In this document: piece after piece, positions 2,162 through 42,510 of the stretch
Layout of the letters: every line of letters starts with the position of its first letter
How positions within the stretch are numbered: position 1 is the stretch's first letter
Assembly (NCBI GenBank): GCA_031549365.1
Contig: JAVBPX010000001.1
Location: forward strand, 130,417 to 194,416
From: Alphaproteobacteria bacterium
Lineage (GTDB): Bacteria > Pseudomonadota > Alphaproteobacteria > Rs-D84
DNA length: 64,000 nucleotides
Direction of reading: 5' to 3'
Notes under the pieces: generated by a model
Databases searched by the model: none
What the model was told of the DNA's origin: nothing
What the model saw: only the letters and a program-made list of their open reading frames with translations
Position numbers and translations under genes: made by a program

Positions 2162-4164
2162 CAACAACACACATAACAATAAATGACACTCGCTGGAAAA
2201 ACGCCAAACTTGATTTTGGCACAATTGTTAATCAAACGTTAAAGTATATGGGGCATAAAAAACCCGGGGCCGAGGTTTCAATCCTACTTACCAATGATTC
2301 CGAAATCCAAAAATTAAATTCTGAATATCGCGGCAAAAACAAACCAACAAACGTATTATCATTTGAAACTGGTGATGATATGATGCTGGGCGATATTGTA
2401 TTATCATATGATACAGTTGAACGCGAATCTATATCTGAACACAAATCTTTTAAAAATCATGCGACTCATCTAATTATCCACGGGGTATTACATTTATTGG
2501 GTTACGATCATATTGATGAAAATCAAGCCAATGAAATGGAGGGGTTGGAACAAAAAATCCTTAATACCATGAAAATTGCTGACCCGTATTCTGATAAACA
2601 CCGCAAATTGCCAAAATGGTTGCGCGGTTCATTATTATCATTTGGATTAATGTTGCTGGGTGCATTTACATCCCTTGGGTTTGCTCCAACAAATTTTATT
2701 TGGGCGTCGATTATCGGAATGATTGTTTATTACATTGTAATTTTTCCAAAACACGGATTTATAAATGGAATGAAAACCGGCTTTTGGTTTGGCGCAGGAT
2801 ACGCATTAACCATGTTATCATGGATGACATCATCATTTTTTGTTGACGCAACGGCGGCTGCAACATTTGGTCCATTATTACCACTGGCGTTAATGGGGAT
2901 TGGAATTGGTGGCGGAATTATATTTGGATTGCCTGCGGCACTGACAGCTATGACGCGCGAAACATCCTGGCGACATGCCGTGTTTTTTGCAACATTTTCA
3001 ACATTAATATTATGGGCCCGCGGTTGGATTCTTACTGGATTTCCCTGGAACCCGTTCGGCTTGGTTTTAATGCCATATGCAGCGATCGCAAATTCAATGT
3101 CTTTGATTGGATCATTGGGGCTTTCATTTTTGTTGATCGGTTTGTGTTCAGCAATTGGATTTATAATCGCCAAACGCATATATAAAATACCAGCCCGCAC
3201 AATGGATCAATTAATGGTATCTGTGTTTGCAATATTATTGTTTGCTTGTTCTTGCTATGGGGCATACCGCTTGAATATGGAATTACCAAAACCAATTGCA
3301 AATGTCCGTTTGGTCCAGGCCGCAATCCCACAACAATTCAAATGGGACCCAGAAATGGCAACTGATCACGTAAATAAACACATCATGCTGTCGAATTTAC
3401 CATCAAAAAATCATTTGGATGCCATAATTTGGCCGGAAAGCGCATATCCATTCGTACAATCAAAACCGGTCTTTTTGCCCGCTACCCAAACAAAAATGCG
3501 TGATAATATTTTAATCAGTGGCGCAATATTAAAATCAGATTCAAATTACTATAACGGATTAATTGTTGCGAACACATCTGGCAATATTATCCAAACATAT
3601 CAAAAACATCACTTGGTCCCATTTGGAGAATATAATCCATTTGAAATTATTGGGATGGGCGCATTGGTTCCAATGCCCGGGTCTTTTGGTTCAGGGAATG
3701 GTGTTAAGACGATTGAAACACCAACCTTTTCATTTGCCCCAGCAATCTGCTATGAAATAATTTTTTCAGGCGGAGTTATTGGCGATATAAAACCAAAAAT
3801 GATTTTAAACATCACAAATGATGGTTGGTTTGGAACAACGTCTGGGCCATACCAACATTTAAACTTGGCCATTGCACATGCAATTGAAACTGGAACTTCG
3901 GTTACACGTGTATCATATTCGGGAATATCCGCTGTAATTGATCCTGTTGGATATTTGGTAAACGGAGAACGTACAACCATCACCGACAGCGTAATTTCAA
4001 ACGATGTATCAAACAATATCCCACTACAACAAATGGGCGTGTTGGATGTTTATGTGCCGGGACCAATGTATGCACCGTATTTATGGGTCGGCCCACATAA
4101 AATGATGATATTGATTTTGTTATTGGTATTAATTACGACAAAAATTCGATTTAATCGGAAATAA
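2158..4164 (+). CDS. lnt: In-frame fusion ORF of endoribonuclease YbeY (N-terminal ~140 aa) and apolipoprotein N-acyltransferase Lnt (C-terminal ~520 aa)
   Basis: The N-terminal part has the YbeY zinc motif 'HGVLHLLGYDH'. From 'LRGSLLSFGLMLLGAFTSLGFAP' onward the sequence is Lnt-like: multi-TM N-terminus, then a nitrilase-fold domain with 'WPESAYPF' and 'ICYEIIF'. There is no stop codon between the two parts. Confidence 0.75.
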   Translation: MTTTHITINDTRWKNAKLDFGTIVNQTLKYMGHKKPGAEVSILLTNDSEIQKLNSEYRGKNKPTNVLSFETGDDMMLGDIVLSYDTVERESISEHKSFKNHATHLIIHGVLHLLGYDHIDENQANEMEGLEQKILNTMKIADPYSDKHRKLPKWLRGSLLSFGLMLLGAFTSLGFAPTNFIWASIIGMIVYYIVIFPKHGFINGMKTGFWFGAGYALTMLSWMTSSFFVDATAAATFGPLLPLALMGIGIGGGIIFGLPAALTAMTRETSWRHAVFFATFSTLILWARGWILTGFPWNPFGLVLMPYAAIANSMSLIGSLGLSFLLIGLCSAIGFIIAKRIYKIPARTMDQLMVSVFAILLFACSCYGAYRLNMELPKPIANVRLVQAAIPQQFKWDPEMATDHVNKHIMLSNLPSKNHLDAIIWPESAYPFVQSKPVFLPATQTKMRDNILISGAILKSDSNYYNGLIVANTSGNIIQTYQKHHLVPFGEYNPFEIIGMGALVPMPGSFGSGNGVKTIETPTFSFAPAICYEIIFSGGVIGDIKPKMILNITNDGWFGTTSGPYQHLNLAIAHAIETGTSVTRVSYSGISAVIDPVGYLVNGERTTITDSVISNDVSNNIPLQQMGVLDVYVPGPMYAPYLWVGPHKMMILILLLVLITTKIRFNRK

Positions 4165-17365: not shown

Positions 17366-17457
17366 GGAGAGGTGGCAGAGCCCGGTTGAATGCGCTCGAC
17401 TCGAAATCGAGTATACTGGCGACAGTATCGGGGGTTCGAATCCCCCCCTCTCCGCCA
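17366..17457 (+). tRNA. tRNA-Ser (anticodon CGA)
   Basis: Cloverleaf with acceptor GGAGAGG/CCTCTCC, long variable arm, anticodon stem ctcga/tcgag, loop 'ctCGAaa', T-loop GGTTCGAATCC. Discriminator G and CCA are encoded. Confidence 0.9.
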
Positions 17458-17512
17458 GACAAGATATTGATTTTACTACAATTTTTTACAAAATCGATAA
17501 CCCTTGAATTAT

Positions 17513-17535
17513 CCCCGGAATTCGGGGATTTTTTT
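17513..17535 (+). terminator. Rho-independent terminator downstream of tRNA-Ser
   Basis: 'ccccggaattcgggg' hairpin followed by a T7 run. Confidence 0.6.
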
Positions 17536-17672
17536 GATGCGATTTTAAGGTTATTGCAATGGTATGTGATTTAATATGTGAAAATACGGCGATATTTTGA
17601 TGTTTACATACAATGCCCGTTTTTGGCAGTGCACTGTTCATTGGTGCGAGGAAATTTTAAGGGAGTTTATTA

Positions 17673-17701
17673 TTGACTTTTTTGATGATTTGTGGTATAA
17701 T
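17673..17701 (+). promoter_or_regulatory. Consensus sigma70 promoter: -35 TTGACT, 17-bp spacer, extended -10 TGgTATAAT
   Basis: 'TTGACT tttttgatgatttgtgg TATAAT' at 17673-17701. Both hexamers match consensus perfectly with optimal spacing and a TG extension. Confidence 0.55.
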
Positions 17702-17714
17702 GCAGAGTATATTA

Positions 17715-17776
17715 GGACGGATTTTATCCGTCTTTTTTAATTTTAGTCCCGCTATTTTTGGCGGGGCTTTTTTTTA
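17715..17776 (+). terminator. Two tandem intrinsic-terminator hairpins in the leader (possible sRNA or attenuator)
   Basis: Hairpin 1 is 'gacgg attttat ccgtc' followed by T6. Hairpin 2 is 'gtcccgc tatttttg gcggggc' followed by T9. Both lie between the consensus promoter and the SD 'aagggag' of the ORF at 17795. Confidence 0.5.
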
Positions 17777-17794
17777 TATTTTTAAGGGAGTAAT

Positions 17795-18574
17795 ATGAAA
17801 AATAATTTTTTTAACGAACAATCTTTAAATTCTGATATTAAAACTCAGATTATCTTAGCTACATTTAAACTTTGGCTTCAAGACAATAAAAAGGAACAAA
17901 ATCTATCTTATATTGATCTATTTTCAGGGCCTGGCATATATGATGATGGAACATTATCTACACCGATATGTATTTTACAGGAAATTTGCAATAATAAGAG
18001 AATGGCACAGAGATTCAATGTGATCTTAAATGATTATAATGCAGAATTTATTGCAAAATTGCGTCGTATGATTTTGAATGTGAAAAATGCTAGGTTTATA
18101 AAAACTTTGGTTACTTCGATTGGTAATGCTGAAAGTTTTCAAAAGACCGTATCTAATAATGAACATATCTTCATGTTAATTGATCCTTGGGGATGGAAGG
18201 GTATAAATAGAAATTATATTAATAATATGTTATTAAATAAGGACTGTGATATTGCGGTGATGTTTAATTTTAATCAGTTTAATCGGTTTATGAATTTTGA
18301 TATCGCAGATGAATTGTTTAATGATTTGTTTGATAAAAAAACTTTGCACGAAATACGTAAATTTTGTAGCACAAATCCAAAATCGGAAAGAGAACAATTC
18401 GTGATAGATAAATTTGTGAAAATGGTTTGTAAAAATTGTGAAAATTGTAATTACACGCCATTTAAATTTAAGATGGAAAAATCGACGCGTACAAGCCATT
18501 ATATTATTTTTATAATTCGTGATAAAGATAGATTTCAAGCAACGAAAACTTTGTTAAATCAATACTTGGCTTGA
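17795..18574 (+). CDS. Hypothetical protein, candidate three-Cys-motif partner protein (TcmP-like) with a methyltransferase-like 'DLFSGPG' motif
   Basis: 259 aa. Good SD 'aagggag' 7 nt upstream. 'YIDLFSGPGIY' resembles SAM-MTase motif I and 'IDPWGWKG' is a possible motif-IV-like element. Directly upstream of a Gp37/Gp68 (DUF5131) gene. Confidence 0.5.
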   Translation: MKNNFFNEQSLNSDIKTQIILATFKLWLQDNKKEQNLSYIDLFSGPGIYDDGTLSTPICILQEICNNKRMAQRFNVILNDYNAEFIAKLRRMILNVKNARFIKTLVTSIGNAESFQKTVSNNEHIFMLIDPWGWKGINRNYINNMLLNKDCDIAVMFNFNQFNRFMNFDIADELFNDLFDKKTLHEIRKFCSTNPKSEREQFVIDKFVKMVCKNCENCNYTPFKFKMEKSTRTSHYIIFIIRDKDRFQATKTLLNQYLA

Positions 18575-18605
18575 AAAATAATATCGTTTCTGGCATAATG
18601 TGAAT

Positions 18606-19340
18606 ATGGCAGAAAAATCTAAACTTGAATGGACGGATGCAACGTGGAACCCAGTTGTTGGATGTACAAAGTACAGCGATGGGTGTATAAATTGTTATGC
18701 AAAACCAATTGCAGAACGTTTGTGTAGACAAGGAGTTTTTGGATACGAAAATGGTTTTAAAATGACATTGCGTCCAGAGCGTTTGGAAATTCCATTGCAT
18801 TGGAAAAAACCAAGATTAATATTTGTAGACTCCATGTGCGATTTATTTCACGATGATGTGCCATTAGAATATATTCAGAAAGTTTTTGCAATAATGAAGC
18901 GTGCAGATTGGCATGTTTATACCATATTAACAAAACGATCAAAGCGTTTGCGTGAATTGGCGTCAAACCTTGAATGGATGCCGCATGTTGTAATGGGTGT
19001 AACGATTGAATCCGATAAATATCGTGATAGGCTGGATGATTTGAAGGCTGTGCCTGCATATATGCGATATTTATCATTGGAGCCATTGTTGGGACCAATT
19101 AACCGATTGGATTTGGATGGAATTGATTGGGTTATTGCTGGTGGAGAATCCGGACCAAATGCACGGCAACTGGATACAAATTGGGTCAGAGAAATTCGCG
19201 ATTGGACATTGGAACAAAAAGCTGCGTTTTGGTTTAAACAGTATAGCGAGTATGGGGGACAGCATAAAGACCCTATTTTAGATGGGGAAAAATATAAGCA
19301 ATTTCCAGATTTTAAAACCGGAAAACCGAGTCTGTTTTAA
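18606..19340 (+). CDS. Phage Gp37/Gp68-family protein (DUF5131, three-Cys-motif protein)
   Basis: N-terminal 'KLEWTDATWNPVVGCTKYSDGCINCYA' matches the hallmark family start, a Cx6CxxC three-Cys motif right after 'WNP..GC'. The ATG at 18606 is preferred over the GTG at 18600. Confidence 0.6.
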   Translation: MAEKSKLEWTDATWNPVVGCTKYSDGCINCYAKPIAERLCRQGVFGYENGFKMTLRPERLEIPLHWKKPRLIFVDSMCDLFHDDVPLEYIQKVFAIMKRADWHVYTILTKRSKRLRELASNLEWMPHVVMGVTIESDKYRDRLDDLKAVPAYMRYLSLEPLLGPINRLDLDGIDWVIAGGESGPNARQLDTNWVREIRDWTLEQKAAFWFKQYSEYGGQHKDPILDGEKYKQFPDFKTGKPSLF

Positions 19341-19971: not shown

Positions 19972-21564
19972 ATGTCGGATAACAATGCCATTCATTGGGC
20001 GGATTTTATTGCAGAGCGAATAATTCGTGAAAAAGGCGATAAAGATTTATATACTTTGGCCAGCGGAATTACCCCGTCTGGGACAATTCATATTGGAAAA
20101 TTTCGCGAGATTATAACCACCGAATTGGTGTCCCGGGCGTTGGTTCGCATGGGGAAAAAGGTACGTTTTATTTATTCTTGGGATGATTATGATACTTTTC
20201 GCAAAGTGCCGGGCGATATGCCACAGCAAGAGATGTTAAAAGAATTATTGTATCAGCCGATTGTCGATATTCCAGATGTTTACGGAACAGAAAGTTCTTA
20301 TGCTCGGCATAACGAAGTGTCGTTGGAACGTATTGCTCCGGTATTGGGCATAACAAATATTGAATTTATTTATCAAAGTCGGATGTATCGTAGTGGCGAA
20401 TATAATGATTTGATTATAAAGGTTATGGATTCGCGAGATAAAATTCGTGATATTTTACAGACATCTAAAAGCCAGGGGATGGATGAAGAGTTTTATCCTA
20501 TTGCAACTTATTGCAGCAATTGCAATCGTGACCGAATTGTTTTTTCAAATTATAATACATCAGATAAAACAGTTGATTATAAGTGTAAGTTATGCAACCA
20601 CACGGAAAAGTTAAATTTACGCGATTCAAGGCGGCTGAAATTGCCTTGGCGAATTGATTGGCCAATGCGTTGGGCATTTGAAAATGTTGATTTTGAACCA
20701 GGTGGGACAGATCATTCTTCGGCTGGGGGCAGTTTTGATACCAGCAAAGTAATCGTTAGTGAGATTTTTGGAGGGGCGTCTCCGGTTTATGCAAAATATG
20801 CATTTGTATTGCCAAAGGGTGAAAGCAAAAAGATGTCTTCGTCAATTGGTAACGGGTTTTCTGTGGAAAGCGTTTTGCAGGTTTATGAACCAGAAATGAT
20901 ACGTTGGTTTTTTGCTTCGTATAAACCAGATGCGCAGTTCAGTATGGCTTTTGACATTGATGTTTTGAAGAATTACGAAGCATTTGACCGAATGGAACGC
21001 GTGGTTTATGGATTGGAAGATGTGAATGATGACAGGCGTGCAGTGCAGCGGCGTATTTATGAAATGTCTCAGATAAATTTTGATGGAAAGATTCCGGAAC
21101 AGATGCCTTTTCAGCCGAGTTTTAGGCACCTGTGTAATCAGTTGCAAATAAACGAATTTGATATCGAAAAAACCAGAGCATATTACGCCCACCAAATCAA
21201 AAATGACATCGATGAACAACGGTATCAAGAAAGGTCCAAATGCGCAGTATTTTGGATACAAAATTGTGCTTCGGATGATTTCAAACTTATATTGAATTCC
21301 GAAAAACGCAATGACATGACATTGTCGACAGATGAAAAAAAGTTCGTGAATGACTTGCACAAAATGTTGGAGATTGATTGGGACAATTTAGATGACGAAC
21401 GCGTCTTACAAAGTAAGGTCGGTGAATTAATTAAGGCCAACGGATTGGAAGTACTAAATGCGTATAAACTGTTATATCAGTTACTGGTCAATCGGGACCA
21501 AGGACCAAAGCTGGCCGGATTTATTTTGGGTATTGGCAAGGATAAGATTCTGAATTTGTTGTAA
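19972..21564 (+). CDS. lysK: Lysyl-tRNA synthetase, class I
   Basis: 530 aa. HIGH-type motif 'PSGTIHIGKFRE' and KMSKS-type motif 'KMSSSIGNG'. Architecture is typical of class I LysRS as found in alphaproteobacteria and archaea. Confidence 0.85.
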   Translation: MSDNNAIHWADFIAERIIREKGDKDLYTLASGITPSGTIHIGKFREIITTELVSRALVRMGKKVRFIYSWDDYDTFRKVPGDMPQQEMLKELLYQPIVDIPDVYGTESSYARHNEVSLERIAPVLGITNIEFIYQSRMYRSGEYNDLIIKVMDSRDKIRDILQTSKSQGMDEEFYPIATYCSNCNRDRIVFSNYNTSDKTVDYKCKLCNHTEKLNLRDSRRLKLPWRIDWPMRWAFENVDFEPGGTDHSSAGGSFDTSKVIVSEIFGGASPVYAKYAFVLPKGESKKMSSSIGNGFSVESVLQVYEPEMIRWFFASYKPDAQFSMAFDIDVLKNYEAFDRMERVVYGLEDVNDDRRAVQRRIYEMSQINFDGKIPEQMPFQPSFRHLCNQLQINEFDIEKTRAYYAHQIKNDIDEQRYQERSKCAVFWIQNCASDDFKLILNSEKRNDMTLSTDEKKFVNDLHKMLEIDWDNLDDERVLQSKVGELIKANGLEVLNAYKLLYQLLVNRDQGPKLAGFILGIGKDKILNLL

Positions 21565-21568
21565 TTCA

Positions 21569-22333
21569 TTACCTTTCTTGTATGTGCTTTCCCATAATGC
21601 ACTGGCGAGCGATGATTTTTTTGATGTTACTGCCGACAAGTTGCGATGTTAGAGGGCAATGATAGCTTTTTTTGAAATTTTCAGTGCATTGTTGTAAAGT
21701 TTCTGTAAAATTTGGTTTATAAAATTTTCCAATTTCTATACCCACAGGGGTGTTTTCAAGATTTCCCTTTGCTATTTCGTTATCAAAATTTTGTTTTGTA
21801 GTCGCAATTATATGTTTATTATCAGTGGTATGCAAGTGTGGTTCAGCCCTCTCCCATTGCGGTTGTGTAGATACAAATTTATCGGCCTCTTGCTTGTATG
21901 TTGAGTGTAATAGTGGACTATCTTTTAGTATTATTTTAGGTAAGTGCAACACCCATAAAATAATTCGAGCATATTGAAATTGCGATAATATGCAATCAGT
22001 TAATACGCATGAAGAACTCATAATTGACGGTAGAGAATCTTTAATGTTATTTGCAATGTATATGAGATCTGAAAGGCATTCTTTGTCTAGGCAAAATCCA
22101 AGGTGGTCAAAATCCTTTTGAAGGTCGTAATGCAGTTTCTTCATGTATTCAAGAAATTTTTTTTCTTGTTCGTGGTTGGATTTTTTTAGTAATATAAAAG
22201 TGTCAACATCTGAATTTGTTTTATCTTCACCTCGAGCAGTTGAGCCACATATAAATGAAAACTCTAGATTGTCTCCGAATATCTCTCGGGTATCTAAGTC
22301 CAATTGTTTTATCTGTTTTTTTGTTATTTTCAT
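21569..22333 (-). CDS. Pol-beta-superfamily nucleotidyltransferase domain protein (ANT/MNT-like), function unknown
   Basis: 254 aa. N-terminal NTase signature 'FICGSTARGEDKTNSDVDTFILL' (G[GS]x9-13Dx[DE]). The extreme C-terminus has an Rx6H element ('ARQCIMGKH') reminiscent of HEPN. Codon usage differs from core genes. Confidence 0.6.
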   Translation of the reverse strand: MKITKKQIKQLDLDTREIFGDNLEFSFICGSTARGEDKTNSDVDTFILLKKSNHEQEKKFLEYMKKLHYDLQKDFDHLGFCLDKECLSDLIYIANNIKDSLPSIMSSSCVLTDCILSQFQYARIILWVLHLPKIILKDSPLLHSTYKQEADKFVSTQPQWERAEPHLHTTDNKHIIATTKQNFDNEIAKGNLENTPVGIEIGKFYKPNFTETLQQCTENFKKSYHCPLTSQLVGSNIKKIIARQCIMGKHIQER

Positions 22334-22355
22334 TATTATTTACCAGTTGCTGTTT

Positions 22356-23813
22356 TTATAAGTATCTTACGATTTCTCTCTGAGGTAGAATTGGTTGTGG
22401 AGTAAATATGCCTTTGTAATAGATTCCAGATGCATGCTTTCCTATACCGCCATATGGTTTGTATCCATGCTCGAAATTGTGTAGATGGTCATTCACAAGT
22501 ATAGAGTCCGGCATATGGATTTTTTCATCATAAAGTATGGCTATTGTTTCTTCTTTTAATTTTCCATAAACTGTCAAAAACATAGCTGATTCTTTATATT
22601 TTGTATTTTTGAAATAGTTTATAAGTTCATTTTCTGAATCATAAGGTTGTATAAAGAATATTGGACAGAACAATTCTTCGTAATTAGCTCCTTCAGAGAG
22701 ATCCTTTACTATTACCGTAGGATATATCATATTTTTTGAAGCGTCTATAAGACCTCCATAATAAATATTCTTCCGATTGTTATAAATTAGTTTTGCAGCA
22801 TTTAATGCGTATCCATCTTTTGTATTAGGCATTATTATCGTGGATTTTTCAGGATTTGAATTACAGTTTTCATGAATTTCTTTTAATTTATTTATTAAAA
22901 TTTCTTGAAAATCTGTTAAACAATCTCTTTTCACAAGTAATGCATTTGGGGCGGCACAGTCTTGTCCTTGGTTGTATGTTCCAAGCTCGATACATGCTTC
23001 GACGGCTTCTTTGATATTTGACCGAAGATTTATTATAACCGGGTTTTGTCCAGCACCACCAAAGAAACAATATAACTCTTTGTTATACGATCTTTTTACT
23101 TTCTTCATGTTTTCATATGTACCTGTAAATATAAATGCCTTTATTTCATTTCGTGTAATATTGAGAAAATCCTCTCTTCCTCCATAGAATATTTCTATAT
23201 TTGGCATACTTGATAAATTTAACAATTTATCTAGCTCTTTAAAAACGTCTTGAGAATCATTTGGATATCTAACATATACTTTCTTACAAATATACGATGG
23301 AACAAGAGCAAAACAAACAAAGGAATACAGCAATTGGTTTAAAGGCATAAATGACGCGATTGGTGCTTTCTCTTTTAAAAAGTATTCCTTATTTATGGTA
23401 AGATTTGTAAGAAGGTCTATTGATCTATCAATTTCATCACATATTGTATTATAGGTGGCATATGATGAAAGAGCTTTATAGATATCTTCTCTGCGCTGAT
23501 TTAATTGAAACGAAAAATTGAGCGCGTCTGTTAAAATTTTATCAAAGTCTAGATTATTTTCCACGTCTTTTTTAGAAATATTTGTTCTTTGTCCAAACCA
23601 AGAGCCAATTTCCTTTTTACTGAGTTTCTCTGTTTTTACTATAAGCCCTAAGTCATTTTTTTCATACTCCAGGCTGAGATTGTTAATATTGTGGAGTATA
23701 TTATCTTTAGCTTTTGTATCCATCTCATCAAATTTGAGGATAAAAGTCAGCCCATTTTTATCTTGTAAAATGGTTCCAATAGGCTGTTTCTTTTTCCTTA
23801 CTATGAAGTCCAT
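22356..23813 (-). CDS. Divergent aldehyde dehydrogenase superfamily protein (catalytic Cys kept, general-base Glu replaced)
   Basis: 485 aa. ALDH motifs present: 'FTGTYENMKKV' (NAD-binding F-T-G-S-T-like), 'NQGQDCAAPNALLVKRD' (Cys motif F-x-N-x-GQ-x-C), 'EELFCPI' (EEIFGPV-like). The 'ELGGKSP' position reads 'FFGGAGQNP', so the Glu is absent. Confidence 0.6.
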   Translation of the reverse strand: MDFIVRKKKQPIGTILQDKNGLTFILKFDEMDTKAKDNILHNINNLSLEYEKNDLGLIVKTEKLSKKEIGSWFGQRTNISKKDVENNLDFDKILTDALNFSFQLNQRREDIYKALSSYATYNTICDEIDRSIDLLTNLTINKEYFLKEKAPIASFMPLNQLLYSFVCFALVPSYICKKVYVRYPNDSQDVFKELDKLLNLSSMPNIEIFYGGREDFLNITRNEIKAFIFTGTYENMKKVKRSYNKELYCFFGGAGQNPVIINLRSNIKEAVEACIELGTYNQGQDCAAPNALLVKRDCLTDFQEILINKLKEIHENCNSNPEKSTIIMPNTKDGYALNAAKLIYNNRKNIYYGGLIDASKNMIYPTVIVKDLSEGANYEELFCPIFFIQPYDSENELINYFKNTKYKESAMFLTVYGKLKEETIAILYDEKIHMPDSILVNDHLHNFEHGYKPYGGIGKHASGIYYKGIFTPQPILPQREIVRYL

Positions 23814-23844: not shown

Positions 23845-25344
23845 TTATCTCAACTTTATTTTTTTTAACATGGGAAATGTTAAAACATCTCTGATATTAG
23901 ATGAGTTTGTTAACATCATGGCGAGGCGATCTGCACCTATTCCCATGCCTCCTGTAGGGGGCATACCGTATTCTAAAGCTGTAAGAAAGGCTTCATCCAT
24001 TTGCATTGCTTCAGGATCATCTGAAAGAGATGCTTGTTCTTCGAATTTTTTTCTTTGATCTATTGGATTTGATAATTCTGAGTAAGCTTCACCAAATTCA
24101 ATGCCGCCAACATAGAGCATAAATCTTTCAGAAAGACGTGGGTTTTGTCGATGTATTTTTGTCAGCGGAGATATATCATATGGAACATCCATTACGAAAG
24201 TTGGTTGAATAAGAGTTTTTTCGACTTTTTCTTCAAATATAGTTTCTACTACTTTACCCCAAGATTCAGTTCCCTTGAGTCGAATTTTGTGTTTTTGGGC
24301 AATGCTATGAATTTCCCTATCGCTCATGTTTATAAGATCTTCGTTCAGCGCTTCTGATGCTGCGTCTACCATTGGTAATCTTTTAAATGGTTTTTCAAGG
24401 TCTATTAAGGCATCTTTCCAAGTAATGTGGAGAGAGCTGTTGACAGCCATAGATGAATCTCGCAGCAATCTTTCTGCGAGAATCATCATGTCAAAATAGT
24501 CTTTATAAGAGCCATATATATCTAGCATTGTGAATTCTGGACTGTGGCGATTATCAATACCTTCATTGCGGAAATTTTTACCAATTTCAAACACTCGAGG
24601 AATGCCTCCAACAATGAGCCGCTTTAGTTCAAGTTCAGATGCTATCCTGAGATAAAAATCGTCTTTAAGAGAATTATAATGTGTAGTAAATGGAGCAGCA
24701 TTTGCACCGGCTTTTACTGGGTGAAGTATAGGTGTTTCTACCTCTATATATCCCTCATCGTGCATTACTTCGCGTATAGCATACATTGCTTTCGCCCTAT
24801 TGAGAACAACATCCCGAGAGTTTTTGTTTACTATAAGATCTACGGATTTATTGCGGTATCTTTCTTCGGAGTCTGTTAGACCGTGGTATTTTTCAGGAAG
24901 AATATTCAATGATTTTGACAGCATTGTTACTTCCAGAGGAGTAACAGAAACTGCTCCTCGCAAAGTTTTTTTAATTCCTCCCAAAACACCAATTATATCA
25001 CCAATGTCAAGATTTTTAAGCATGTTATTAAATTGTGTATCTGCTTTTGGATTTTCATTGCAAATTTGAATTTTTCCGGATTCATCTTCAACATCGATGA
25101 ACATTCCGGAATTTCGGATTGCCATAATTCTTCCTGCAATTTTTACAATGTCTTTTGTATCCGCTGTCTTTTCACCAGGTTGAAGGTGGCCAAATTCAGC
25201 TATTATATTACTGGCAAGATGCGTTGGTTTGTATATGTGTGGATATGCGTTTATTCCTTGAGATTCGATGTCTTTAAGTTTTTGAATCCTTATTTCTTTT
25301 AAAGAATTTATTGGTGTCTTATTATCTTTTTTTTGATTTTGCAT
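23845..25344 (-). CDS. lysS: Lysyl-tRNA synthetase, class II (full length, with N-terminal anticodon-binding OB fold)
   Basis: 499 aa. Class II motif 1 'RVFEIGKNFRNEG', motif 2 'HSPEFTMLDIY', motif 3 'GGMGIGADRLAMMLT'. N-terminal OB-fold region 'KIAGRIMAIRNSGMFIDVEDESGKIQICNE'. AGA/AGG/GGA/ACA-rich codon usage unlike neighbouring core genes. Confidence 0.85.
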   Translation of the reverse strand: MQNQKKDNKTPINSLKEIRIQKLKDIESQGINAYPHIYKPTHLASNIIAEFGHLQPGEKTADTKDIVKIAGRIMAIRNSGMFIDVEDESGKIQICNENPKADTQFNNMLKNLDIGDIIGVLGGIKKTLRGAVSVTPLEVTMLSKSLNILPEKYHGLTDSEERYRNKSVDLIVNKNSRDVVLNRAKAMYAIREVMHDEGYIEVETPILHPVKAGANAAPFTTHYNSLKDDFYLRIASELELKRLIVGGIPRVFEIGKNFRNEGIDNRHSPEFTMLDIYGSYKDYFDMMILAERLLRDSSMAVNSSLHITWKDALIDLEKPFKRLPMVDAASEALNEDLINMSDREIHSIAQKHKIRLKGTESWGKVVETIFEEKVEKTLIQPTFVMDVPYDISPLTKIHRQNPRLSERFMLYVGGIEFGEAYSELSNPIDQRKKFEEQASLSDDPEAMQMDEAFLTALEYGMPPTGGMGIGADRLAMMLTNSSNIRDVLTFPMLKKIKLR

Positions 25345-25366
25345 AGATATACCTTTTTATACTTTT

Positions 25367-25439
25367 TGGGGGGCGGTCCGGATTTGAACCGTACCTCTGA
25401 GGGAAAACTCAGCGTTCTGCCTAATTATACTACCCGCCC
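25367..25439 (-). tRNA. Aberrant tRNA-like element (degenerate cloverleaf, 6-nt anticodon loop TTTTCC). Either a pseudo-tRNA or a non-canonical tRNA.
   Basis: Minus-strand sequence GGGCGGGTAGTATAATTAGGCAGAACGCTGAGTTTTCCCTCAGAGGTACGGTTCAAATCCGGACCGCCCCCCA. Canonical T-loop GGTTCAAATCC. Acceptor 6/7 pairs. 3' C-CCA encoded. Anticodon stem CTGAG/CTCAG with only 6 loop nt. D-stem and T-stem each carry a mismatch. Confidence 0.4.
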
Positions 25440-25522
25440 TATAATTGTGATGAAGTGATCCCATCAACTTATCATTGTTTATGTCAAAAGCAATTTAAAT
25501 GTCAATAATTATTTTTTGTTAT

Positions 25523-26644
25523 TTATTTGTTATTTAATATAATTAATGGCACTTGCATTTCGGATGCTGTCCCGCCTGCATGTTCAGATGCTGGTGAGCC
25601 AAACTCTTCCCAAGCTTTTTGATTTTGATGCAATGATTTGTTTCCTATTCCAATTGCGACATAGTCCCCGATTGATTCATCTTCCAGCACTCTATTCTTG
25701 GCAGAATACCAGTGAAGGTAGTTTGTTTTAAAAGTTTCCTTATTGATCAGCAAAAAATCTTTCTCCGAAAATATTTCATAAAATATTCTTTCAAAGCTAT
25801 TTTTAGCCTCTGGTTTTACGAAAAATTGTGTACAACGCGCCTCACATGAAATCGGCATTATCAGAGTGTCAGCAATACCCGTAAAATCTTCGATAAATAA
25901 GGGCAAAGTATCAATATGACCGTGATCAGCAGTTATGATGAATAATGTATCTGGGCAATTATTTTGCAAATTTATTATTGCATCTCGTATATTGCAGATA
26001 CAATTTCTGGCTTCGCCAGACAAAATTCCGTGATCATGGTTAGTGCTATCTGGCTCCGGCCAATACGCGTATATGTAATTTTTATTGGCATTTTTTGTAT
26101 TTGCTATTTTTTCAATAGTTGAACACCATTTCTCAACTGTATTATGCTCTGGTGTAATAAACTGAGGCATAACCTCAAAAGCGCTCCATTCGGAAATATC
26201 ATTGATTTGGTCAACAAGTAATGCTGGCATTTTTTCCAACGGAGGCTTCGTAAGATGAGATGATTCACCACTATAAAAGTCACAATTAGTAAAATTTTCG
26301 ACAATCTCTCCAGATTCTTTATAATATTGCGACCATCCCAATAACCCATGTGATACAGGCAACAGCCCCGTGCGCAAAGTTGTTGTGGCGGCAACCGTAG
26401 TAGAAGGAACTATTGTATCAATAGTATCATATTTGTTTTTATAAAAATAGTCTGTCACAGAATCGCTTAATACATCCAGCTGTTCTGTCCCCATTCCGTC
26501 TAGGACTATAAGAGCTATGTTTTTGTACACTTCCGATGACCACGAATTTATGATCATTGGATGCGACTCATAATTTGGACATAGTCCAACAATTTTTTGT
26601 ATTGCAGATGTTATTGATGTTATATCGTATTTCATGAGGTACAT
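25523..26644 (-). CDS. Alkaline-phosphatase-superfamily protein (type I phosphodiesterase / nucleotide pyrophosphatase-like)
   Basis: 'IALIVLDGMGTEQLDV' metal-site region and 'FIITADHGHID' match the AlkP/NPP family. Start placed at the first ATG ('MYLMKYD'). The ORF track extends to a TTG at 26671. Confidence 0.7.
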   Translation of the reverse strand: MYLMKYDITSITSAIQKIVGLCPNYESHPMIINSWSSEVYKNIALIVLDGMGTEQLDVLSDSVTDYFYKNKYDTIDTIVPSTTVAATTTLRTGLLPVSHGLLGWSQYYKESGEIVENFTNCDFYSGESSHLTKPPLEKMPALLVDQINDISEWSAFEVMPQFITPEHNTVEKWCSTIEKIANTKNANKNYIYAYWPEPDSTNHDHGILSGEARNCICNIRDAIINLQNNCPDTLFIITADHGHIDTLPLFIEDFTGIADTLIMPISCEARCTQFFVKPEAKNSFERIFYEIFSEKDFLLINKETFKTNYLHWYSAKNRVLEDESIGDYVAIGIGNKSLHQNQKAWEEFGSPASEHAGGTASEMQVPLIILNNK

Positions 26645-27298
26645 ATTAGCAATGACATATCTTGAAGTCAACCGCGTATTTGGTTGAAAGTTGAGCGGAA
26701 TTCTAGTTTCGTGGGAATATTGGTTGTTTTTATGTTTTGGTAATGAATTTTCATTGTTATTTAAAATAAATTCCCTGTTAGGGTTTTAGGGAATTTGGGG
26801 TGATGTGGGTAGTGGATGCCGCGGTGTGGTTGGGGTTGTGAATTTGGGACCAATTGGTAAAATGCGATTTTAGGGGCAAAACCACAAAATTTCCCTGTAA
26901 ATTCCCTGATGTTGTTTGTGTGATTAATTTTGCTGTGTGGAATCGCGTAACCTTGCGATGCACACATCAATTCCGTGCTAATAACGCACGTCATTGTGTG
27001 TTTATATGCTCGGTTTCCCTGATAATCGGTTGGATGTTGGTGGGGTGTTGGATTATTCGGGGAAATAATCGGGATAAGTGATTTATGAGGTGTTTATCAT
27101 GTTTAGTATGCTCTACACCAATAACATTTACACCTCCGCCAGAATTGGCCGTTTTATTTTTATCCGCGCGCGGCCCCGAAAACTCGCGGCTTTACTTTTT
27201 ATTTTCACAGTGGTATGGTGATTTATATCAAAAATCTGCAGATTTGGTTCTCCTTACATACGATTACCATTTTTGCACTGTGAACTTTGGGGGCTGTT

Positions 27299-29359: not shown

Positions 29360-30889
29360 TTATGGAATCAATTTAATTAACGCGTCATAAACCTTTGGGT
29401 TTGAAAATATTTGCGCAACAACACCCTGGGTTAACAAATCTTCATCTTGGCCATTTGCAACTTCGGGACAACCACGACGAATTTTTTCAATACGCGATTG
29501 ATCTGTTTCCGAATACCACGTTTCCAATCCTGTTTTGAAATCTTTGTTTAAAATGTTAACAAACATAACTTCTTGCTGCTTTTGGGAACGAATGCTGGAA
29601 GTACAAATCACCGGCAAAACCCCGCGGTTCGACAAATCACGACCGCCCCCCGTTTTCATTTGACGATTTGTAATTTTTAATTGCCCGCCATTTTTCAATG
29701 GTATGGTTTTTGATAATTTCGCATCCCCAGCAGTTGGTGTTCCGACAACCAACCCACGATGATTTTCTTCGAATGCCGCGGCCAGCGCTTCGCCCAATTT
29801 GTGTGTTTGACGGGATGTTAAAACAATCACCGGGATGTTTGAATCAACAATTGCCTCGCCCCCTGGGACCATTTCGAATGCCTTGTCCGAACCAACATTT
29901 ATCACCTGTAAAACAGGCACTTTGCCCATAAAAAGACCGGCGATTTGGGTCATTGCCTCTTCATCATCACCATCGGTGGTACGCAAATCCAGTACAATCC
30001 CCGATGTTGCTTGGGTAATTTTTTCACTCAATGTTTCAGCAATTAATCCAACAGATTTTTTAGTTAATTGATGAATAACAATTTCAATAATTGTATCACG
30101 TTTAATAACGTCTGCATCCGCCATCATAATGGTTGCACGACGCAATACAACGTTTCGTTCGGCCTTGGTAACGGGATCAAAAACATCCAGTTTAACCAAT
30201 GATGTCGTAAAGCCTTCCAATATATCAATTATTTCTTCGTCACTCATCCCGGTTGCTTGGCGACCATTAATCGATAAAACTATGTCTTGATTTTTTAATC
30301 CAGCATTGTCGGCCATAGAGCCTTGGATCACAGATGTGATTCTGTAATAACCATCCTCGTTTCTGACGCCAGCCAATCCCAAACTGGTCAATACCCGGCC
30401 CTGTTGTTTTACTTGGATCATTTCCGGATAAATGTATCCACCCGATGGATCCAATTCATTCATCATGGCACCAACAACTGCAAAATAAATTTGTTGATCA
30501 TTTGCTTTGGCCAAATTTGGTAATTTTTCACGTAAATTTAAAATTATTGCCGTGGTTAATTCACCCCAATCATTCCATTTACCAATTTTTGGCAATTCAT
30601 AATTACCGGCAATTGTATCATCATACACAATAACCATACGCGGTCCAGTTACACTGATCCCAACTCGTGGATCAATTGTTTCAATTGATTGAATTATCCT
30701 GGTCATGCCGTTGGCTGCTTGGTCGTTGTTCCAATTATTCTGATCCAGCTTTTCGTAAACATCCGCAAAGAAAGCGCTCATCTCTGGGACATTAATCCCA
30801 TCCACCATAACGTCTTCGTCATCGAAATACAGGCCCGCATTCAAAGCAAACGGCCATAAAATTGCTGTAATCAGTAATAATTTTCTCAT
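29360..30889 (-). CDS. ctpA: Carboxy-terminal processing (tail-specific) protease, S41 family with PDZ domain
   Basis: 509 aa. Signal peptide. PDZ region 'GLAGVRNEDGYYRITSVIQGSMADNAGLKNQDIVLSING'. S41 catalytic region 'VIVLTSRQTHKLGEALA'. Confidence 0.8.
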   Translation of the reverse strand: MRKLLLITAILWPFALNAGLYFDDEDVMVDGINVPEMSAFFADVYEKLDQNNWNNDQAANGMTRIIQSIETIDPRVGISVTGPRMVIVYDDTIAGNYELPKIGKWNDWGELTTAIILNLREKLPNLAKANDQQIYFAVVGAMMNELDPSGGYIYPEMIQVKQQGRVLTSLGLAGVRNEDGYYRITSVIQGSMADNAGLKNQDIVLSINGRQATGMSDEEIIDILEGFTTSLVKLDVFDPVTKAERNVVLRRATIMMADADVIKRDTIIEIVIHQLTKKSVGLIAETLSEKITQATSGIVLDLRTTDGDDEEAMTQIAGLFMGKVPVLQVINVGSDKAFEMVPGGEAIVDSNIPVIVLTSRQTHKLGEALAAAFEENHRGLVVGTPTAGDAKLSKTIPLKNGGQLKITNRQMKTGGGRDLSNRGVLPVICTSSIRSQKQQEVMFVNILNKDFKTGLETWYSETDQSRIEKIRRGCPEVANGQDEDLLTQGVVAQIFSNPKVYDALIKLIP

Positions 30890-42424: not shown

Positions 42425-42510
42425 GGGCGTGCGCCGGAGTTGGAGAGCCGGGGCAGACTGTAAATCTGTTGGCTATGCCTGAGCTGGTTCGAATCCAGCC
42501 ACTCCCACCA
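42425..42510 (+). tRNA. tRNA-Tyr (anticodon GTA), type II with long variable arm
   Basis: Anticodon stem GCAGA/TCTGT with loop 'cTGTAaa'. Variable arm 'TGGCTATGCCTGA'. T-arm GCTGG-TTCGAAT-CCAGC. CCA encoded. The acceptor has one C4:U69 mismatch and position 8 is C. Confidence 0.8.

What the first reader, a model, noticed from the sequence alone, without database searches (positions are those of the whole stretch)
25367..25439. Aberrant tRNA-like element upstream of the class II lysS
Seen in sequence:
- The minus-strand sequence has a perfect T-loop (GGTTCAAATCC) and a 6-bp GC-rich acceptor helix ending in discriminator C plus an encoded CCA.
- The anticodon stem (CTGAG/CTCAG) encloses only 6 nt (TTTTCC) instead of 7.
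- The D-stem (GTAT/GAAC) and T-stem (TACGG/CCGGA) each have a mismatch.
- The acceptor/T junction is one base short.

Possible explanations:
- a decaying tRNA gene (UUU-Lys or UUC-Glu type);
- an attachment-site remnant of an integrated element;
- a genuinely non-canonical tRNA read by the neighbouring LysRS.

Established knowledge says dedicated aaRS partners such as tRNA-Pyl, tRNA-Sec and allo-tRNAs are known to break cloverleaf rules. The position immediately 5' of a foreign LysRS, on the same strand, makes this worth testing.
Basis: partly seen in the sequence, partly recalled or inferred. Interest (0 to 1): 0.65.

Follow-up and report, generated by a model that had tools for sequence, protein, structure and literature searches.

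The report
Degenerate tRNA relic leading foreign lysS
A real but badly damaged tRNA-shaped sequence sits 22 bases upstream of a laterally acquired second lysyl-tRNA synthetase gene in a Rickettsiales-like bacterium; it is most likely a dead tRNA gene now serving only as that gene's leader, not a special partner tRNA.

Summary
A 73-nt tRNA-like element lies at window 25367-25440 (minus strand). It has a 6-nt anticodon loop (UUUUCC), mismatches in the D and T stems, and an acceptor/T stack one pair short. It ends 22 nt before the ATG of a class II lysS. ARAGORN calls it tRNA-?(Lys|Glu) with a 2-base anticodon. Rfam tRNA scores 28.6 bits against a gathering score of 29, while the four real tRNAs of the window score 39.5-73. 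Shuffled windows give no ARAGORN calls.

The host is a Rickettsiales-like alphaproteobacterium whose native enzyme is the class I LysRS 2.3 kb away. The class II gene and its neighbours look foreign: low GC3, and best homologues only 38-62% identical.

I found no homologue of the element in 185,579 species genomes, JGI metagenomes, viral contigs, phages, plasmids or E. coli. It is absent upstream of the three closest lysS homologues. It has no convincing promoter or terminator of its own. Its cloverleaf lies 9.3 kcal/mol above the minimum free energy fold.

Best reading: a degenerate tRNA carried in foreign DNA and co-transcribed as the lysS leader. A regulatory or tRNAOther-like role is possible but unsupported. 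Moderate to low interest.

The parts
25367..25440 (-). Aberrant tRNA-like element. G1 is at 25439 and the encoded CCA at 25369-25367. Acceptor 25439-25434 / 25376-25371; D arm 25430-25414; anticodon arm 25412-25397 with the 6-nt loop UUUUCC at 25407-25402; T arm 25393-25377.
   Evidence: Sequence read directly. ARAGORN calls it tRNA-?(Lys|Glu)(tt). Rfam tRNA gives 28.6 bits against a gathering score of 29. ARAGORN made no calls in shuffled windows. Cloverleaf -14.2 versus MFE -23.5 kcal/mol. GC is 56%, against 17-23% in the flanks.
25345..25366 (-). 22-nt spacer between the element's CCA and the lysS start codon. It holds the AAAAAGG Shine-Dalgarno-like run (25358-25352). There is no terminator and no room for a separate promoter.
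   Evidence: Sequence. The terminator scan lists none here. The SD purines are predicted unpaired in the folded leader.
25424..25451 (-). Best sigma70-like promoter match upstream of lysS: ATCACA-16-TATAAT. Its -10 hexamer (25429-25424) is the 5' strand of the element's D stem plus the first D-loop bases.
   Evidence: Promoter scan, 10 of 12 matches. This is a consensus match only: the region has 12 such sites against 9.4 expected. The four canonical tRNA genes show TTGCAA/TTGCAC-like -35 boxes and TAnAnT -10 boxes upstream; the element has none at the right spacing.
23845..25344 (-). Class II lysyl-tRNA synthetase (LysRS2), 499 aa, laterally acquired and unusually divergent.
   Evidence: Pfam tRNA-synt_2 plus the OB anticodon-binding domain. 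It passes NCBIfam lysS_bact (540.8 bits against a 427.6 cut-off). Best homologues are 59-62% identical, then about 50%. GC3 is 0.26 against 0.34-0.41 for housekeeping genes. It deviates at 18 of 154 columns that are at least 95% conserved, where the family median is 1. It aligns end to end with solved LysRS structures.
21569..23813 (-). Two genes downstream of lysS in the same orientation with short gaps: a divergent aldehyde-dehydrogenase-family protein (22356-23813) and an NTP_transf_2 nucleotidyltransferase (21569-22333). They probably form one transcription unit with lysS and belong to the same low-GC3 block.
   Evidence: Pfam, NCBIfam and PDB matches. GC3 is 0.25 and 0.29. The block is absent next to lysK in related Rickettsiales contigs.
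19972..21564 (+). Native class I lysyl-tRNA synthetase (LysRS1), convergent with the foreign block. Its stop codon is 4 nt from the stop of the nucleotidyltransferase gene.
   Evidence: PF01921 and TIGR00467. It is 72-74% identical to LysRS1 of MAGs named Rickettsiales bacterium. GC3 is 0.38, like the housekeeping genes.
25523..26671 (-). Alkaline-phosphatase/phosphodiesterase-family gene immediately upstream of the element on the same strand. It also looks foreign, so the element lies inside the foreign stretch rather than at its edge.
   Evidence: PF01663. Best homologues are only 38-43% identical, from Clostridiaceae, Lachnospiraceae and Alphaproteobacteria MAGs. GC3 is 0.32.

Best explanation
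The element is a degenerate, full-length copy of a class I (short variable arm) tRNA gene: a pseudo-tRNA of Glu- or Lys-like ancestry. It lies inside a stretch of laterally acquired, low-GC3 genes in a Rickettsiales-like alphaproteobacterium. It no longer works as a tRNA. One base is missing from the anticodon loop, which has no purine 37. The acceptor/T stack is 11 pairs instead of 12. The D and T stems are each broken by a mismatch.

Only 22 nt separate it from the lysS start codon, with no terminator in between. The RNA that encodes the foreign LysRS2 must therefore either run through the element or start inside it. The element, or its 3' two thirds, is thus the 5' leader of the lysS-aldH-nucleotidyltransferase transcript.

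Shown: the anatomy, the foreign character of the flanking genes, and the lack of any homologue. Inferred: co-transcription and loss of tRNA function. Any residual role would be a passive one in cis, such as providing a -10 box, 5' hairpins or an RNase P site.
For: Structural defects, read from the sequence and from ARAGORN's drawing:
- a 6-nt loop;
- an A12.A23 mismatch;
- an A50.G64 mismatch;
- an unpaired G7, or alternatively an A1.C72 mismatch;
- a 3-nt variable region.

Scores and energetics:
- Rfam tRNA gives 28.6 bits, below the gathering score of 29. The window's real tRNAs score 73, 70.3, 57.7 and 39.5.
- The cloverleaf is 9.3 kcal/mol less stable than the MFE fold. That gap exceeds every short-arm tRNA in an ad hoc sample of 69 canonical tRNAs, whose median gap is 2.1.

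Expression signals:
- All four canonical tRNA genes have recognisable -35/-10 boxes upstream, and two have terminators. The element has neither.

No conservation:
- Absent upstream of the three closest LysRS2 clusters.
- No homologue in the scan of 185,579 species genomes.
- None in two JGI metagenome scans.
- None in four viral-contig scans.
- None by blastn against phages, plasmids or E. coli.

Foreign context:
- LysRS2, the aldehyde dehydrogenase-like gene and the nucleotidyltransferase have GC3 of 0.25-0.29, against 0.34-0.41 for housekeeping genes.
- LysRS2 and the upstream phosphodiesterase have only distant homologues.
- The block is missing beside lysK in relatives.

Against: - The element is 56% GC in 17-23% GC flanks. 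Either the decay is recent or something keeps the sequence.
- All universally conserved tertiary nucleotides survive: U8, A14, G18, G19, A21, U33, G53, T54, Psi55, C56, A58 and C61. The acceptor (6/6) and anticodon (5/5) stems are perfect. With only about 5 lesions this is not statistically unusual: roughly a 40% chance of sparing 12 of 73 positions.
- An encoded CCA is present in the 6-bp acceptor reading, as in all four real tRNA genes of the window.
- The position directly ahead of an aminoacyl-tRNA synthetase gene, with both LysRS classes within 5.5 kb, echoes Bacillus cereus tRNAOther (PMC2916919, PMC3399842).
- No close relative of this genome was available, so neither decay nor conservation could be observed directly.
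Confidence: 0.52

Rival explanations
1. Exapted cis-acting leader. The tRNA-shaped fold is kept because it serves lysS expression. It could act as an RNase P/RNase E processing signal that separates lysS mRNA from upstream transcription. It could provide stabilising 5' hairpins. Or it could be the source of the promoter's -10 box.
For: - The spacer to the ATG is 22 nt, with no terminator or intervening promoter.
- A perfect TATAAT lies in the D arm, with a 4/6 -35 box at 16 nt.
- The high GC has been retained.
- Precedent: B. cereus tRNAOther works as a tRNA-like module inside longer transcripts (PMC3399842).
- From general knowledge: tRNA-mRNA co-transcripts such as metY-nusA-infB and the tufB operon are processed by RNase P.
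Against: - The arrangement is not conserved in any lysS homologue examined.
- Promoter-like matches are as frequent as in shuffled sequence (12 found against 9.4 expected).
- The cloverleaf is energetically disfavoured.
- The two proposed roles are partly incompatible: a transcript that starts in the D loop lacks the acceptor 5' strand and cannot be an RNase P substrate.
Confidence: 0.2
2. LysRS-binding tRNA mimic. One version is a translational operator: excess LysRS2 binds the tRNALys-like U-rich anticodon arm and acceptor next to the ribosome-binding site and represses its own synthesis, in the manner of ThrRS. The other version is a tRNAOther-like small RNA that is bound or lysylated by LysRS2, possibly together with LysRS1, for a role outside decoding.
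For: - The loop carries UUUU. If the closing G-C pair opens, it presents U33-U34-U35-U36 as in tRNALys.
- The 3' end lies about 9 nt from the SD run.
- Both LysRS classes are encoded within 5.5 kb. The two known cases of coexistence were each linked to an odd tRNA: tRNAOther and tRNAPyl (PMC2916919, PMC5389517).
- LysRS2 has unique substitutions in otherwise invariant motifs (RYRQRYLD to RYRNKSVD, GELS to GAVS). These could mean altered RNA recognition.
- aaRS autoregulation through anticodon mimics has precedents: E. coli thrS (general knowledge) and yeast HisRS (PMC6542539).
Against: - There is no comparative support at all. The element is unique to this genome in every collection searched.
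- From general knowledge: the discriminator is C, not the A73 of tRNALys.
- The 11-bp acceptor/T stack and broken stems argue against productive aminoacylation.
- The LysRS2 substitutions are equally well explained by relaxed selection on a redundant gene in an AT-drifting genome.
- No link between the substituted motifs and RNA contacts was tested here.
Confidence: 0.12
3. Integration-site scar. A resident tRNA gene served as the docking site for the lysS block, and the recombination or its aftermath damaged it, for example by imprecise crossover in the anticodon loop.
For: - tRNA genes are common integration sites, and tRNAOther flanks an island (PMC3399842).
- The element borders the lowest-GC3 genes.
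- In the same window another small mobile or defence-candidate insert sits right after tRNA-Ser.
- In L148 a phosphodiesterase homologue lies about 1 kb upstream of a tRNA-Asn, which is followed by HTH_17 and resolvase genes.
Against: - The window has no integrase or recombinase.
- There is no direct repeat of the element's 3' half within the window.
- The gene on the other side (phosphodiesterase) also looks foreign.
- No canonical tRNA with this T arm and acceptor 3' half exists in the JGI metagenomes, although these do contain relatives of the host.
- The acceptor GGGCGG resembles none of the window's native tRNAs.
Confidence: 0.1
4. A working decoding tRNA with a 6-nt anticodon loop, acting as a doublet or frameshift decoder, charged by LysRS2.
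For: ARAGORN can model it with a 2-base anticodon. The tertiary-interaction nucleotides and a CCA are present.
Against: - It scores below the tRNA gathering score.
- The acceptor/T stack has 11 pairs and both the D and T stems are broken.
- There is no purine 37.
- It has no promoter or terminator of its own.
- It is unique to one genome.
- From general knowledge: EF-Tu and the ribosome measure the 12-bp acceptor/T helix.
Confidence: 0.02

Closest known systems
Bacillus cereus tRNAOther (a pseudo-tRNA flanking a genomic island)
   Same: - A tRNA-shaped gene with defects that keep it out of translation.
- Associated with laterally acquired DNA.
[quoted passage not shown]
- tRNAOther is part of longer transcripts and acts as a tRNA-like module (PMC3399842, PMC2916919).
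   Different: - tRNAOther has a normal Trp (CCA) anticodon and is conserved in several Bacilli. The element here has a 6-nt loop and is known from one genome only.
- In B. cereus the foreign enzyme is LysRS1. Here it is LysRS2.
- tRNAOther is not placed directly in front of a LysRS gene.
Ordinary tRNA pseudogenes and tRNA remnants at or within horizontally acquired DNA
   Same: - Full cloverleaf outline with stem mismatches, a defective loop and a low covariance score.
- No expression signals of its own.
- Located among foreign genes.
   Different: It retains high GC and all the conserved tertiary nucleotides. It is fused to the 5' end of an aminoacyl-tRNA synthetase gene, so it must be transcribed as part of an mRNA.
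aaRS autoregulatory tRNA mimics (E. coli thrS operator; yeast HisRS mRNA anticodon mimic, PMC6542539)
   Same: An RNA resembling the cognate tRNA's anticodon arm lies in the synthetase's own mRNA near the translation start.
   Different: - Known operators mimic only the anticodon arm and are conserved among orthologues.
- Here a whole degenerate cloverleaf is present and is not conserved.
- Its ancestry (Glu versus Lys) is unclear, and binding is untested.
Non-canonical tRNAs with dedicated partners (tRNASec, tRNAPyl, allo-tRNAs; PMC5389517)
   Same: A cloverleaf that breaks the 7/5 rule, next to a synthetase gene.
   Different: - Those keep a 12- or 13-bp acceptor/T stack (8/5, 9/4, 8/4, 9/3) and a 7-nt anticodon loop, and they are conserved families.
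- This one has a 6/5 stack (or 7/5 with mismatches), a 6-nt loop and broken stems.
tRNA-mRNA co-transcription units (metY-nusA-infB and thrU-tyrU-glyT-thrT-tufB in E. coli; from general knowledge)
   Same: A tRNA-shaped unit lies immediately upstream of a translation-related protein gene with no terminator between them.
   Different: In those operons the tRNAs are canonical and functional.

Membership tests
Canonical tRNA (Rfam RF00005) | Covariance-model score at or above the curated gathering score | tested here: not met
   28.6 bits against 29. It is not listed in the gathering-threshold scan of the window. The window's real tRNAs score 39.5-73.
Canonical tRNA (Rfam RF00005) | 7-nt anticodon loop with U33 and a purine at 37 | tested here: not met
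   The loop is UUUUCC, 6 nt with no purine.
Canonical tRNA (Rfam RF00005) | 7-bp acceptor plus 5-bp T stem (a 12-bp coaxial stack), with intact D and T stems | tested here: not met
   The stack is 6+5 with G7 unpaired, or 7+5 with an A1.C72 mismatch. A12.A23 and A50.G64 are mismatched. The variable region is 3 nt.
Canonical tRNA (Rfam RF00005) | Conserved tertiary-interaction nucleotides (U8, A14, G18G19, A21, G53, T54-Psi55-C56, A58, C61) | tested here: met
   All are present in the sequence.
Canonical tRNA (Rfam RF00005) | Expressed and processed to a discrete RNA that is aminoacylated | not testable with these tools
   No transcript data are available. Indirectly, it has no promoter or terminator like those of the four real tRNA genes.
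tRNASec / tRNAPyl / allo-tRNA | Extended acceptor/T stack (8/5, 9/4, 8/4 or 9/3), a 6-bp anticodon stem (Sec, Pyl), a long variable arm (Sec, allo), and a stop-codon or reassigned anticodon in a 7-nt loop | tested here: not met
   The stack is 6/5, the anticodon stem 5 bp, the variable region 3 nt and the loop 6 nt. In the clan-filtered Rfam scan the best match is plain tRNA.
att-site duplication of a tRNA 3' end | A partial copy of the 3' part of a tRNA, forming a direct repeat with an intact tRNA across an element that carries an integrase | tested here: not met
   The element is full length. With up to 3 mismatches there is no second copy of its 3' half in the window. The only similar stretch is inverted and lies inside a peptidase coding sequence. 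The window has no integrase. The rest of the 201-kb contig could not be examined.
tRNAOther-like pseudo-tRNA | Host encodes both LysRS1 and LysRS2 | tested here: met
   PF01921/TIGR00467 at 19972-21564 and PF00152/TIGR00499 at 23845-25344.
tRNAOther-like pseudo-tRNA | Aminoacylated by LysRS1 plus LysRS2, with a regulatory role outside translation | not testable with these tools
   This needs biochemistry and genetics.
tRNAOther-like pseudo-tRNA | Sequence homology to tRNAOther and a Trp (CCA) anticodon | tested here: not met
   The anticodon loop is UUUUCC, not a CCA anticodon. Direct sequence comparison was not possible because the tRNAOther sequence was not retrievable.
Synthetase translational operator (thrS type) | Mimic of the cognate tRNA's anticodon arm next to the ribosome-binding site | tested here: inconclusive
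   A U-rich loop is present and the 3' end is about 9 nt from the SD run. But the loop fits a Glu loop lacking A37 (UUUUC-C) as well as it fits a Lys loop.
Synthetase translational operator (thrS type) | Conserved upstream of orthologous synthetase genes | tested here: not met
   There is no tRNA-like hit upstream of lysS in L001-L006.

The most novel reading that the evidence does not exclude
[quoted passage not shown] In this reading the unusually divergent foreign LysRS2, alone or with the native LysRS1, binds or lysylates the tRNA-like leader or a small RNA cut from it. That would either autoregulate lysS translation or supply lysine to a non-ribosomal process.
Probability: 0.1. Interest if true: 0.7.

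Novelty: new member of a known kind. Interest (0 to 1): 0.33.

Why it matters
If it is only a relic, it is a tidy example of a dead tRNA riding along with a transferred synthetase gene and becoming that gene's leader. It is also a warning for annotators: ARAGORN calls it a tRNA, while Rfam just misses it.

It would matter more if the element is bound or charged by LysRS2. The coexistence of the two unrelated LysRS classes has twice been tied to unusual tRNAs (tRNAPyl and tRNAOther). A third, genetically linked case in an alphaproteobacterium would suggest a general reason for keeping both enzymes. The unusual substitutions in invariant LysRS2 motifs deserve a look for the same reason.

Tried and rejected
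Searches for homologues of the element:
- Genome collection, pattern GTTTTCCC-N9-12-GGTTCRAATCC: 92 hits. Nearly all are variable arms of tRNA-Ser or random sequence, and none is homologous. The source genome itself is not in that collection.
- Metagenome scan 1, anticodon arm plus GGTTC: 0 hits.
- Metagenome scan 2, T arm plus acceptor 3' half: 43 hits, none an intact tRNA. Most belong to an unrelated repeated core.
- Viral contigs, four scans including LysRS2 protein: nothing relevant.
- blastn against phages, plasmids and E. coli genomes: only noise or no match.

Searches for the arrangement elsewhere:
- The three closest LysRS2 clusters (L001-L006) have no tRNA-like element upstream, even with permissive Rfam thresholds.
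- LysRS1 relatives (L100-L104) show no synteny and lack the block.
- Phosphodiesterase homologues (L148-L150) are too distant, and no informative tRNA is adjacent.

Attempts to find the parent isotype:
- Alignment to the window's four tRNAs and to 69 tRNAs from fetched loci gave no close match.
- The Glu-like reading remains an inference from memory, not a test. It rests on U11-A24, U13.G22, the short variable region, and the loop read as UUUUCAC minus A37.

Rejected ideas:
- Sequencing or assembly error. The Logan assembly is identical, and several independent defects cannot come from one homopolymer slip.
- The inverted 17/19 match at 29633-29651 as an att partner. It lies in glycine codons of the S41 peptidase gene and is in the wrong orientation.
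- SD sequestration by the element. The SD purines are predicted unpaired.
- A defence-system context for the lysS block. PADLOC gives only weak hits for the nucleotidyltransferase.

Full report
**1. The observation.**

The minus strand of window 25367-25440 reads AGGGCGGGUAGUAUAAUUAGGCAGAACGCUGAGUUUUCCCUCAGAGGUACGGUUCAAAUCCGGACCGCCCCCCA.
- a GC-rich acceptor, GGGCGG/CCGCCC;
- discriminator C followed by CCA;
- a D arm GUAU/GAAC with an A12.A23 mismatch and a U13.G22 wobble;
- a perfect 5-bp anticodon stem enclosing only six bases, UUUUCC;
- a T arm UACGG/CCGGA with an A50.G64 mismatch and a textbook T-loop region, GGTTCAAATCC;
- a junction one base short, because G7 has no partner.

The variable region is also only 3 nt.

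ARAGORN reports the element as 'tRNA-???' with a two-base anticodon, labelled tRNA-?(Lys|Glu). It draws the alternative of a 7-bp acceptor with an A1.C72 mismatch. The Rfam tRNA model aligns it end to end at 28.6 bits, just below the gathering score of 29. The four canonical tRNA genes of the window score 73, 70.3, 57.7 and 39.5 bits.

ARAGORN made no prediction in 100 dinucleotide-preserving shuffles of the window, so the element is certainly derived from a tRNA. A separate Logan assembly of the same sample carries the identical sequence.

**2. Host and neighbourhood.**

The ORF that starts 22 nt downstream (23845-25344, minus strand) is a full-length class II LysRS. It passes the NCBIfam lysS_bact cut-off and aligns end to end with solved bacterial LysRS structures.

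Only 2.3 kb away, convergently oriented, lies a class I LysRS (19972-21564). It is 72-74% identical to LysRS1 of MAGs named Rickettsiales bacterium. Its GC3 (0.38) matches that of the many housekeeping genes in the window, including MiaB, ThrRS, GluRS, SecDF, TrpRS, RecJ, MutL, FtsK and Lon. The host is therefore a Rickettsiales-like alphaproteobacterium with a native class I enzyme, as expected for that group (PMC1475646).

By contrast, LysRS2 has no homologue above 62% identity among 5.8 billion proteins. Its nearest named relatives are gut or other Alphaproteobacteria, Gastranaerophilales and Vampirovibrionales MAGs. Its GC3 is 0.26. The two genes behind it, an aldehyde dehydrogenase-like gene and a nucleotidyltransferase, have GC3 of 0.25 and 0.29.

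The gene in front of the element, an alkaline-phosphatase-family phosphodiesterase, also has only 38-43% identical homologues, from Clostridiaceae, Lachnospiraceae and Alphaproteobacteria MAGs. Contigs of related Rickettsiales that carry lysK lack the whole block.

The element lies inside the foreign stretch rather than at its edge.

**3. Is the element conserved anywhere?**

No.
- The three closest LysRS2 clusters (six loci) have no tRNA or tRNA-like sequence upstream of lysS, even at permissive Rfam thresholds.
- A scan of one genome per 185,579 species for the loop plus T-loop signature returned 92 places, none homologous.
- Two scans of JGI metagenomes found no copy of the element and no canonical tRNA with its T arm and acceptor 3' half.
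- Viral contigs, phage, plasmid and E. coli collections gave nothing.

With no second sequence, covariation could not be tested. This is the main limit of the analysis.

**4. Does it look like a working gene?**

Several independent lines say no.
- It has about five separate structural lesions (section 1).
- Its cloverleaf energy is -14.2 kcal/mol, and an alternative fold reaches -23.5.
- Each of the four real tRNA genes has a recognisable -35 box (TTGCAA/TTGCAC-like) and -10 box (TAnAnT) a few to about 25 nt upstream, and two are followed by terminators. The element has two perfect TTGACA hexamers upstream but no -10 box at the right spacing.
- The best sigma70-like match is ATCACA-16-TATAAT, whose -10 box is the D arm itself. 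That is only a consensus match.
- There is no terminator between the element and lysS.

On the other side of the argument, the element keeps all the universal tertiary nucleotides, perfect acceptor and anticodon stems, and a possible CCA. It is 56% GC in 17-23% GC flanks. Either the damage is recent or something preserves the sequence. With only about five lesions, sparing the 12 invariant positions has roughly a 40% chance, so this is not significant.

**5. Mechanism.**

What follows directly from the anatomy is this. lysS has 22 nt between the element and its ATG, holding only a Shine-Dalgarno-like run. Its mRNA must therefore either include the element, through read-through from upstream, or begin inside it. 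I therefore describe the element as a pseudo-tRNA that has become the 5' leader of the lysS-aldH-nucleotidyltransferase transcript (confidence about 0.5).

The single-base-deletion pattern (loop, junction, variable region) fits the deletional bias of Rickettsiales pseudogenes; that is general knowledge, not tested here. Ancestry is unresolved. The loop equals a tRNAGlu loop (UUUUCAC) minus A37, and U11-A24, U13.G22 and a short variable region are Glu-like. This comparison is from memory, not from a test. If the closing G-C pair opens, the loop also presents U33-U36 as in tRNALys.

**6. Rivals.**

- *(a) Exapted cis element* (RNase P site, 5' hairpins, promoter donor): plausible from position alone, but with no comparative support (confidence 0.2).
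- *(b) LysRS-binding mimic or tRNAOther-like RNA* (0.12). The attraction is the context. Both LysRS classes sit within 5.5 kb, and in the two known cases of coexistence the pair was linked to an odd tRNA: tRNAOther in B. cereus and tRNAPyl in Methanosarcina (PMC2916919, PMC3399842, PMC5389517). In addition, this LysRS2 is the most deviant of 117 homologues at highly conserved columns, with 18 of 154 deviations against a median of 1. Its unique changes include RYRQRYLD to RYRNKSVD and GELS to GAVS in the OB fold. These changes can equally reflect relaxed selection on a redundant gene in an AT-drifting genome.
- *(c) Integration-site scar of a resident tRNA* (0.1). Weakened by foreign-looking genes on both sides, the absence of an integrase and of a direct repeat, and no parent tRNA in metagenomes that do contain relatives of the host.
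- *(d) A decoding tRNA* (0.02).

**7. Comparison with known systems.**

The element fails the defining tests for a canonical tRNA: gathering score, 7-nt loop and 12-bp stack. It also fails those for tRNASec, tRNAPyl and allo-tRNAs, and for a simple att duplication. Its nearest functional analogue is B. cereus tRNAOther, which shares the pseudo-tRNA status, the association with acquired DNA and the dual-LysRS host. It differs in anticodon, conservation and placement.

I file it as a new member of a known kind: a pseudo-tRNA or tRNA-like relic in horizontally acquired DNA.

**8. Verdict.**

The feature is real and accurately described. The dedicated-partner interpretation is unsupported. The most likely reading is ordinary. 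Interest is 0.33. The residual novel reading, a LysRS2/LysRS1-linked tRNA mimic, has a probability of about 0.1 and would be worth about 0.7 if true.

Noticed in passing
window 19972-21564 (+) and 23845-25344 (-): A class I and a class II lysyl-tRNA synthetase are encoded 2.3 kb apart in one alphaproteobacterial genome. Such coexistence is rare; it has been reported for Methanosarcina, B. cereus and Treponema (PMC1475646). Here the class II copy is the foreign one.
   Followed up: yes
window 23845-25344 (-), residues 126-167, 268-275, 409-452: LysRS2 is the most deviant of 117 homologues at columns that are at least 95% conserved (18 of 154, against a median of 1).
- Unique changes: RYRQRYLD to RYRNKSVD, GELS to GAVS, LPLP to NILP.
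- Changes shared with its small clade (P0002-P0004) fall in active-site motifs: HNPEFT, EFTxxE to EFTMLD, RFE to RFM, N to E.
The cause could be relaxed selection or altered specificity; this is unresolved.
   Followed up: partly
L001-L005 (closest LysRS2 homologues), for example L001 6001-10786: In the nearest relatives, lysS is followed by a radical SAM gene, a second shorter class II (tRNA-synt_2) gene and an S66 (MccF/LD-carboxypeptidase-like) peptidase. This is a conserved four-gene cluster. It could be EpmA/EpmB-like lysine chemistry or an aminoacyl-nucleotide pathway.
   Followed up: no
window 17366-19340: Directly after tRNA-Ser(CGA) (17366-17457) lie a TcmP 'three-Cys-motif partner' gene (GC3 0.25) and a 'radical SAM mobile pair protein A' gene. 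Both match the PADLOC candidate defence pair PDC-M30A/B, and the radical SAM protein also matches PDC-M41B. This looks like a small mobile insert at a tRNA gene.
   Followed up: partly
L105-L147 (for example L128 13052, L147, L121) and viral contigs L151-L154: About 30 digester or bioreactor metagenome contigs and four IMG/VR viral contigs share a roughly 30-nt core, (G)CAAACCGATCCGGTTCAAATCCGGACCGCCC: a T-arm-like hairpin plus an acceptor-like tail. The flanks vary, and the core often lies near contig ends. ARAGORN finds no tRNA in any of them, and the four metagenome loci scanned with Rfam gave no hit at gathering thresholds. It may be a viral att core or the end of a repeated element. The match to the window element was forced by the search pattern, so no relationship is shown.
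   Followed up: partly
window 29633-29651 (+): CAAATCACGACCGCCCCCC matches the element's 3' end at 17 of 19 positions in inverted orientation. It lies in a run of glycine codons of the S41 peptidase gene, so it is probably chance.
   Followed up: yes
window 25479-25503 (-): Two perfect TTGACA hexamers lie 19 nt apart upstream of the element (TTGACATTTAAATTGCTTTTGACATAAAC), with no matching -10 box. They could be a weak or extended -10 promoter or a regulator binding site.
   Followed up: no
window 2158-4164 (+): A single 668-aa ORF combines a YbeY endoribonuclease domain (residues 19-137) with apolipoprotein N-acyltransferase domains (LNT_N plus CN_hydrolase). This appears to be a gene fusion.
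   Followed up: no
window 9051-39468: Six aminoacyl-tRNA synthetase genes lie within about 30 kb: ThrRS, GluRS, LysRS1, LysRS2, a class IIa (tRNA-synt_2b) enzyme and TrpRS.
   Followed up: no
L013 1795-1870 (Candidatus Peribacteria MAG): A tRNA-like stretch with a D arm GTTC/GAAC, a stem CGGAGG/CCTCCG around the same TTTTCC loop, and a GGTTCAAATCC T loop. ARAGORN and Rfam (gathering thresholds) are both negative. It was selected by the search pattern, so the shared loop is not independent evidence.
   Followed up: partly
window 42425-42510 (+): The tRNA-Tyr(GTA) scores only 39.5 bits on the Rfam tRNA model, far below the other canonical tRNAs of the window. Its cloverleaf is 7.5 kcal/mol above its MFE fold.
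   Followed up: no
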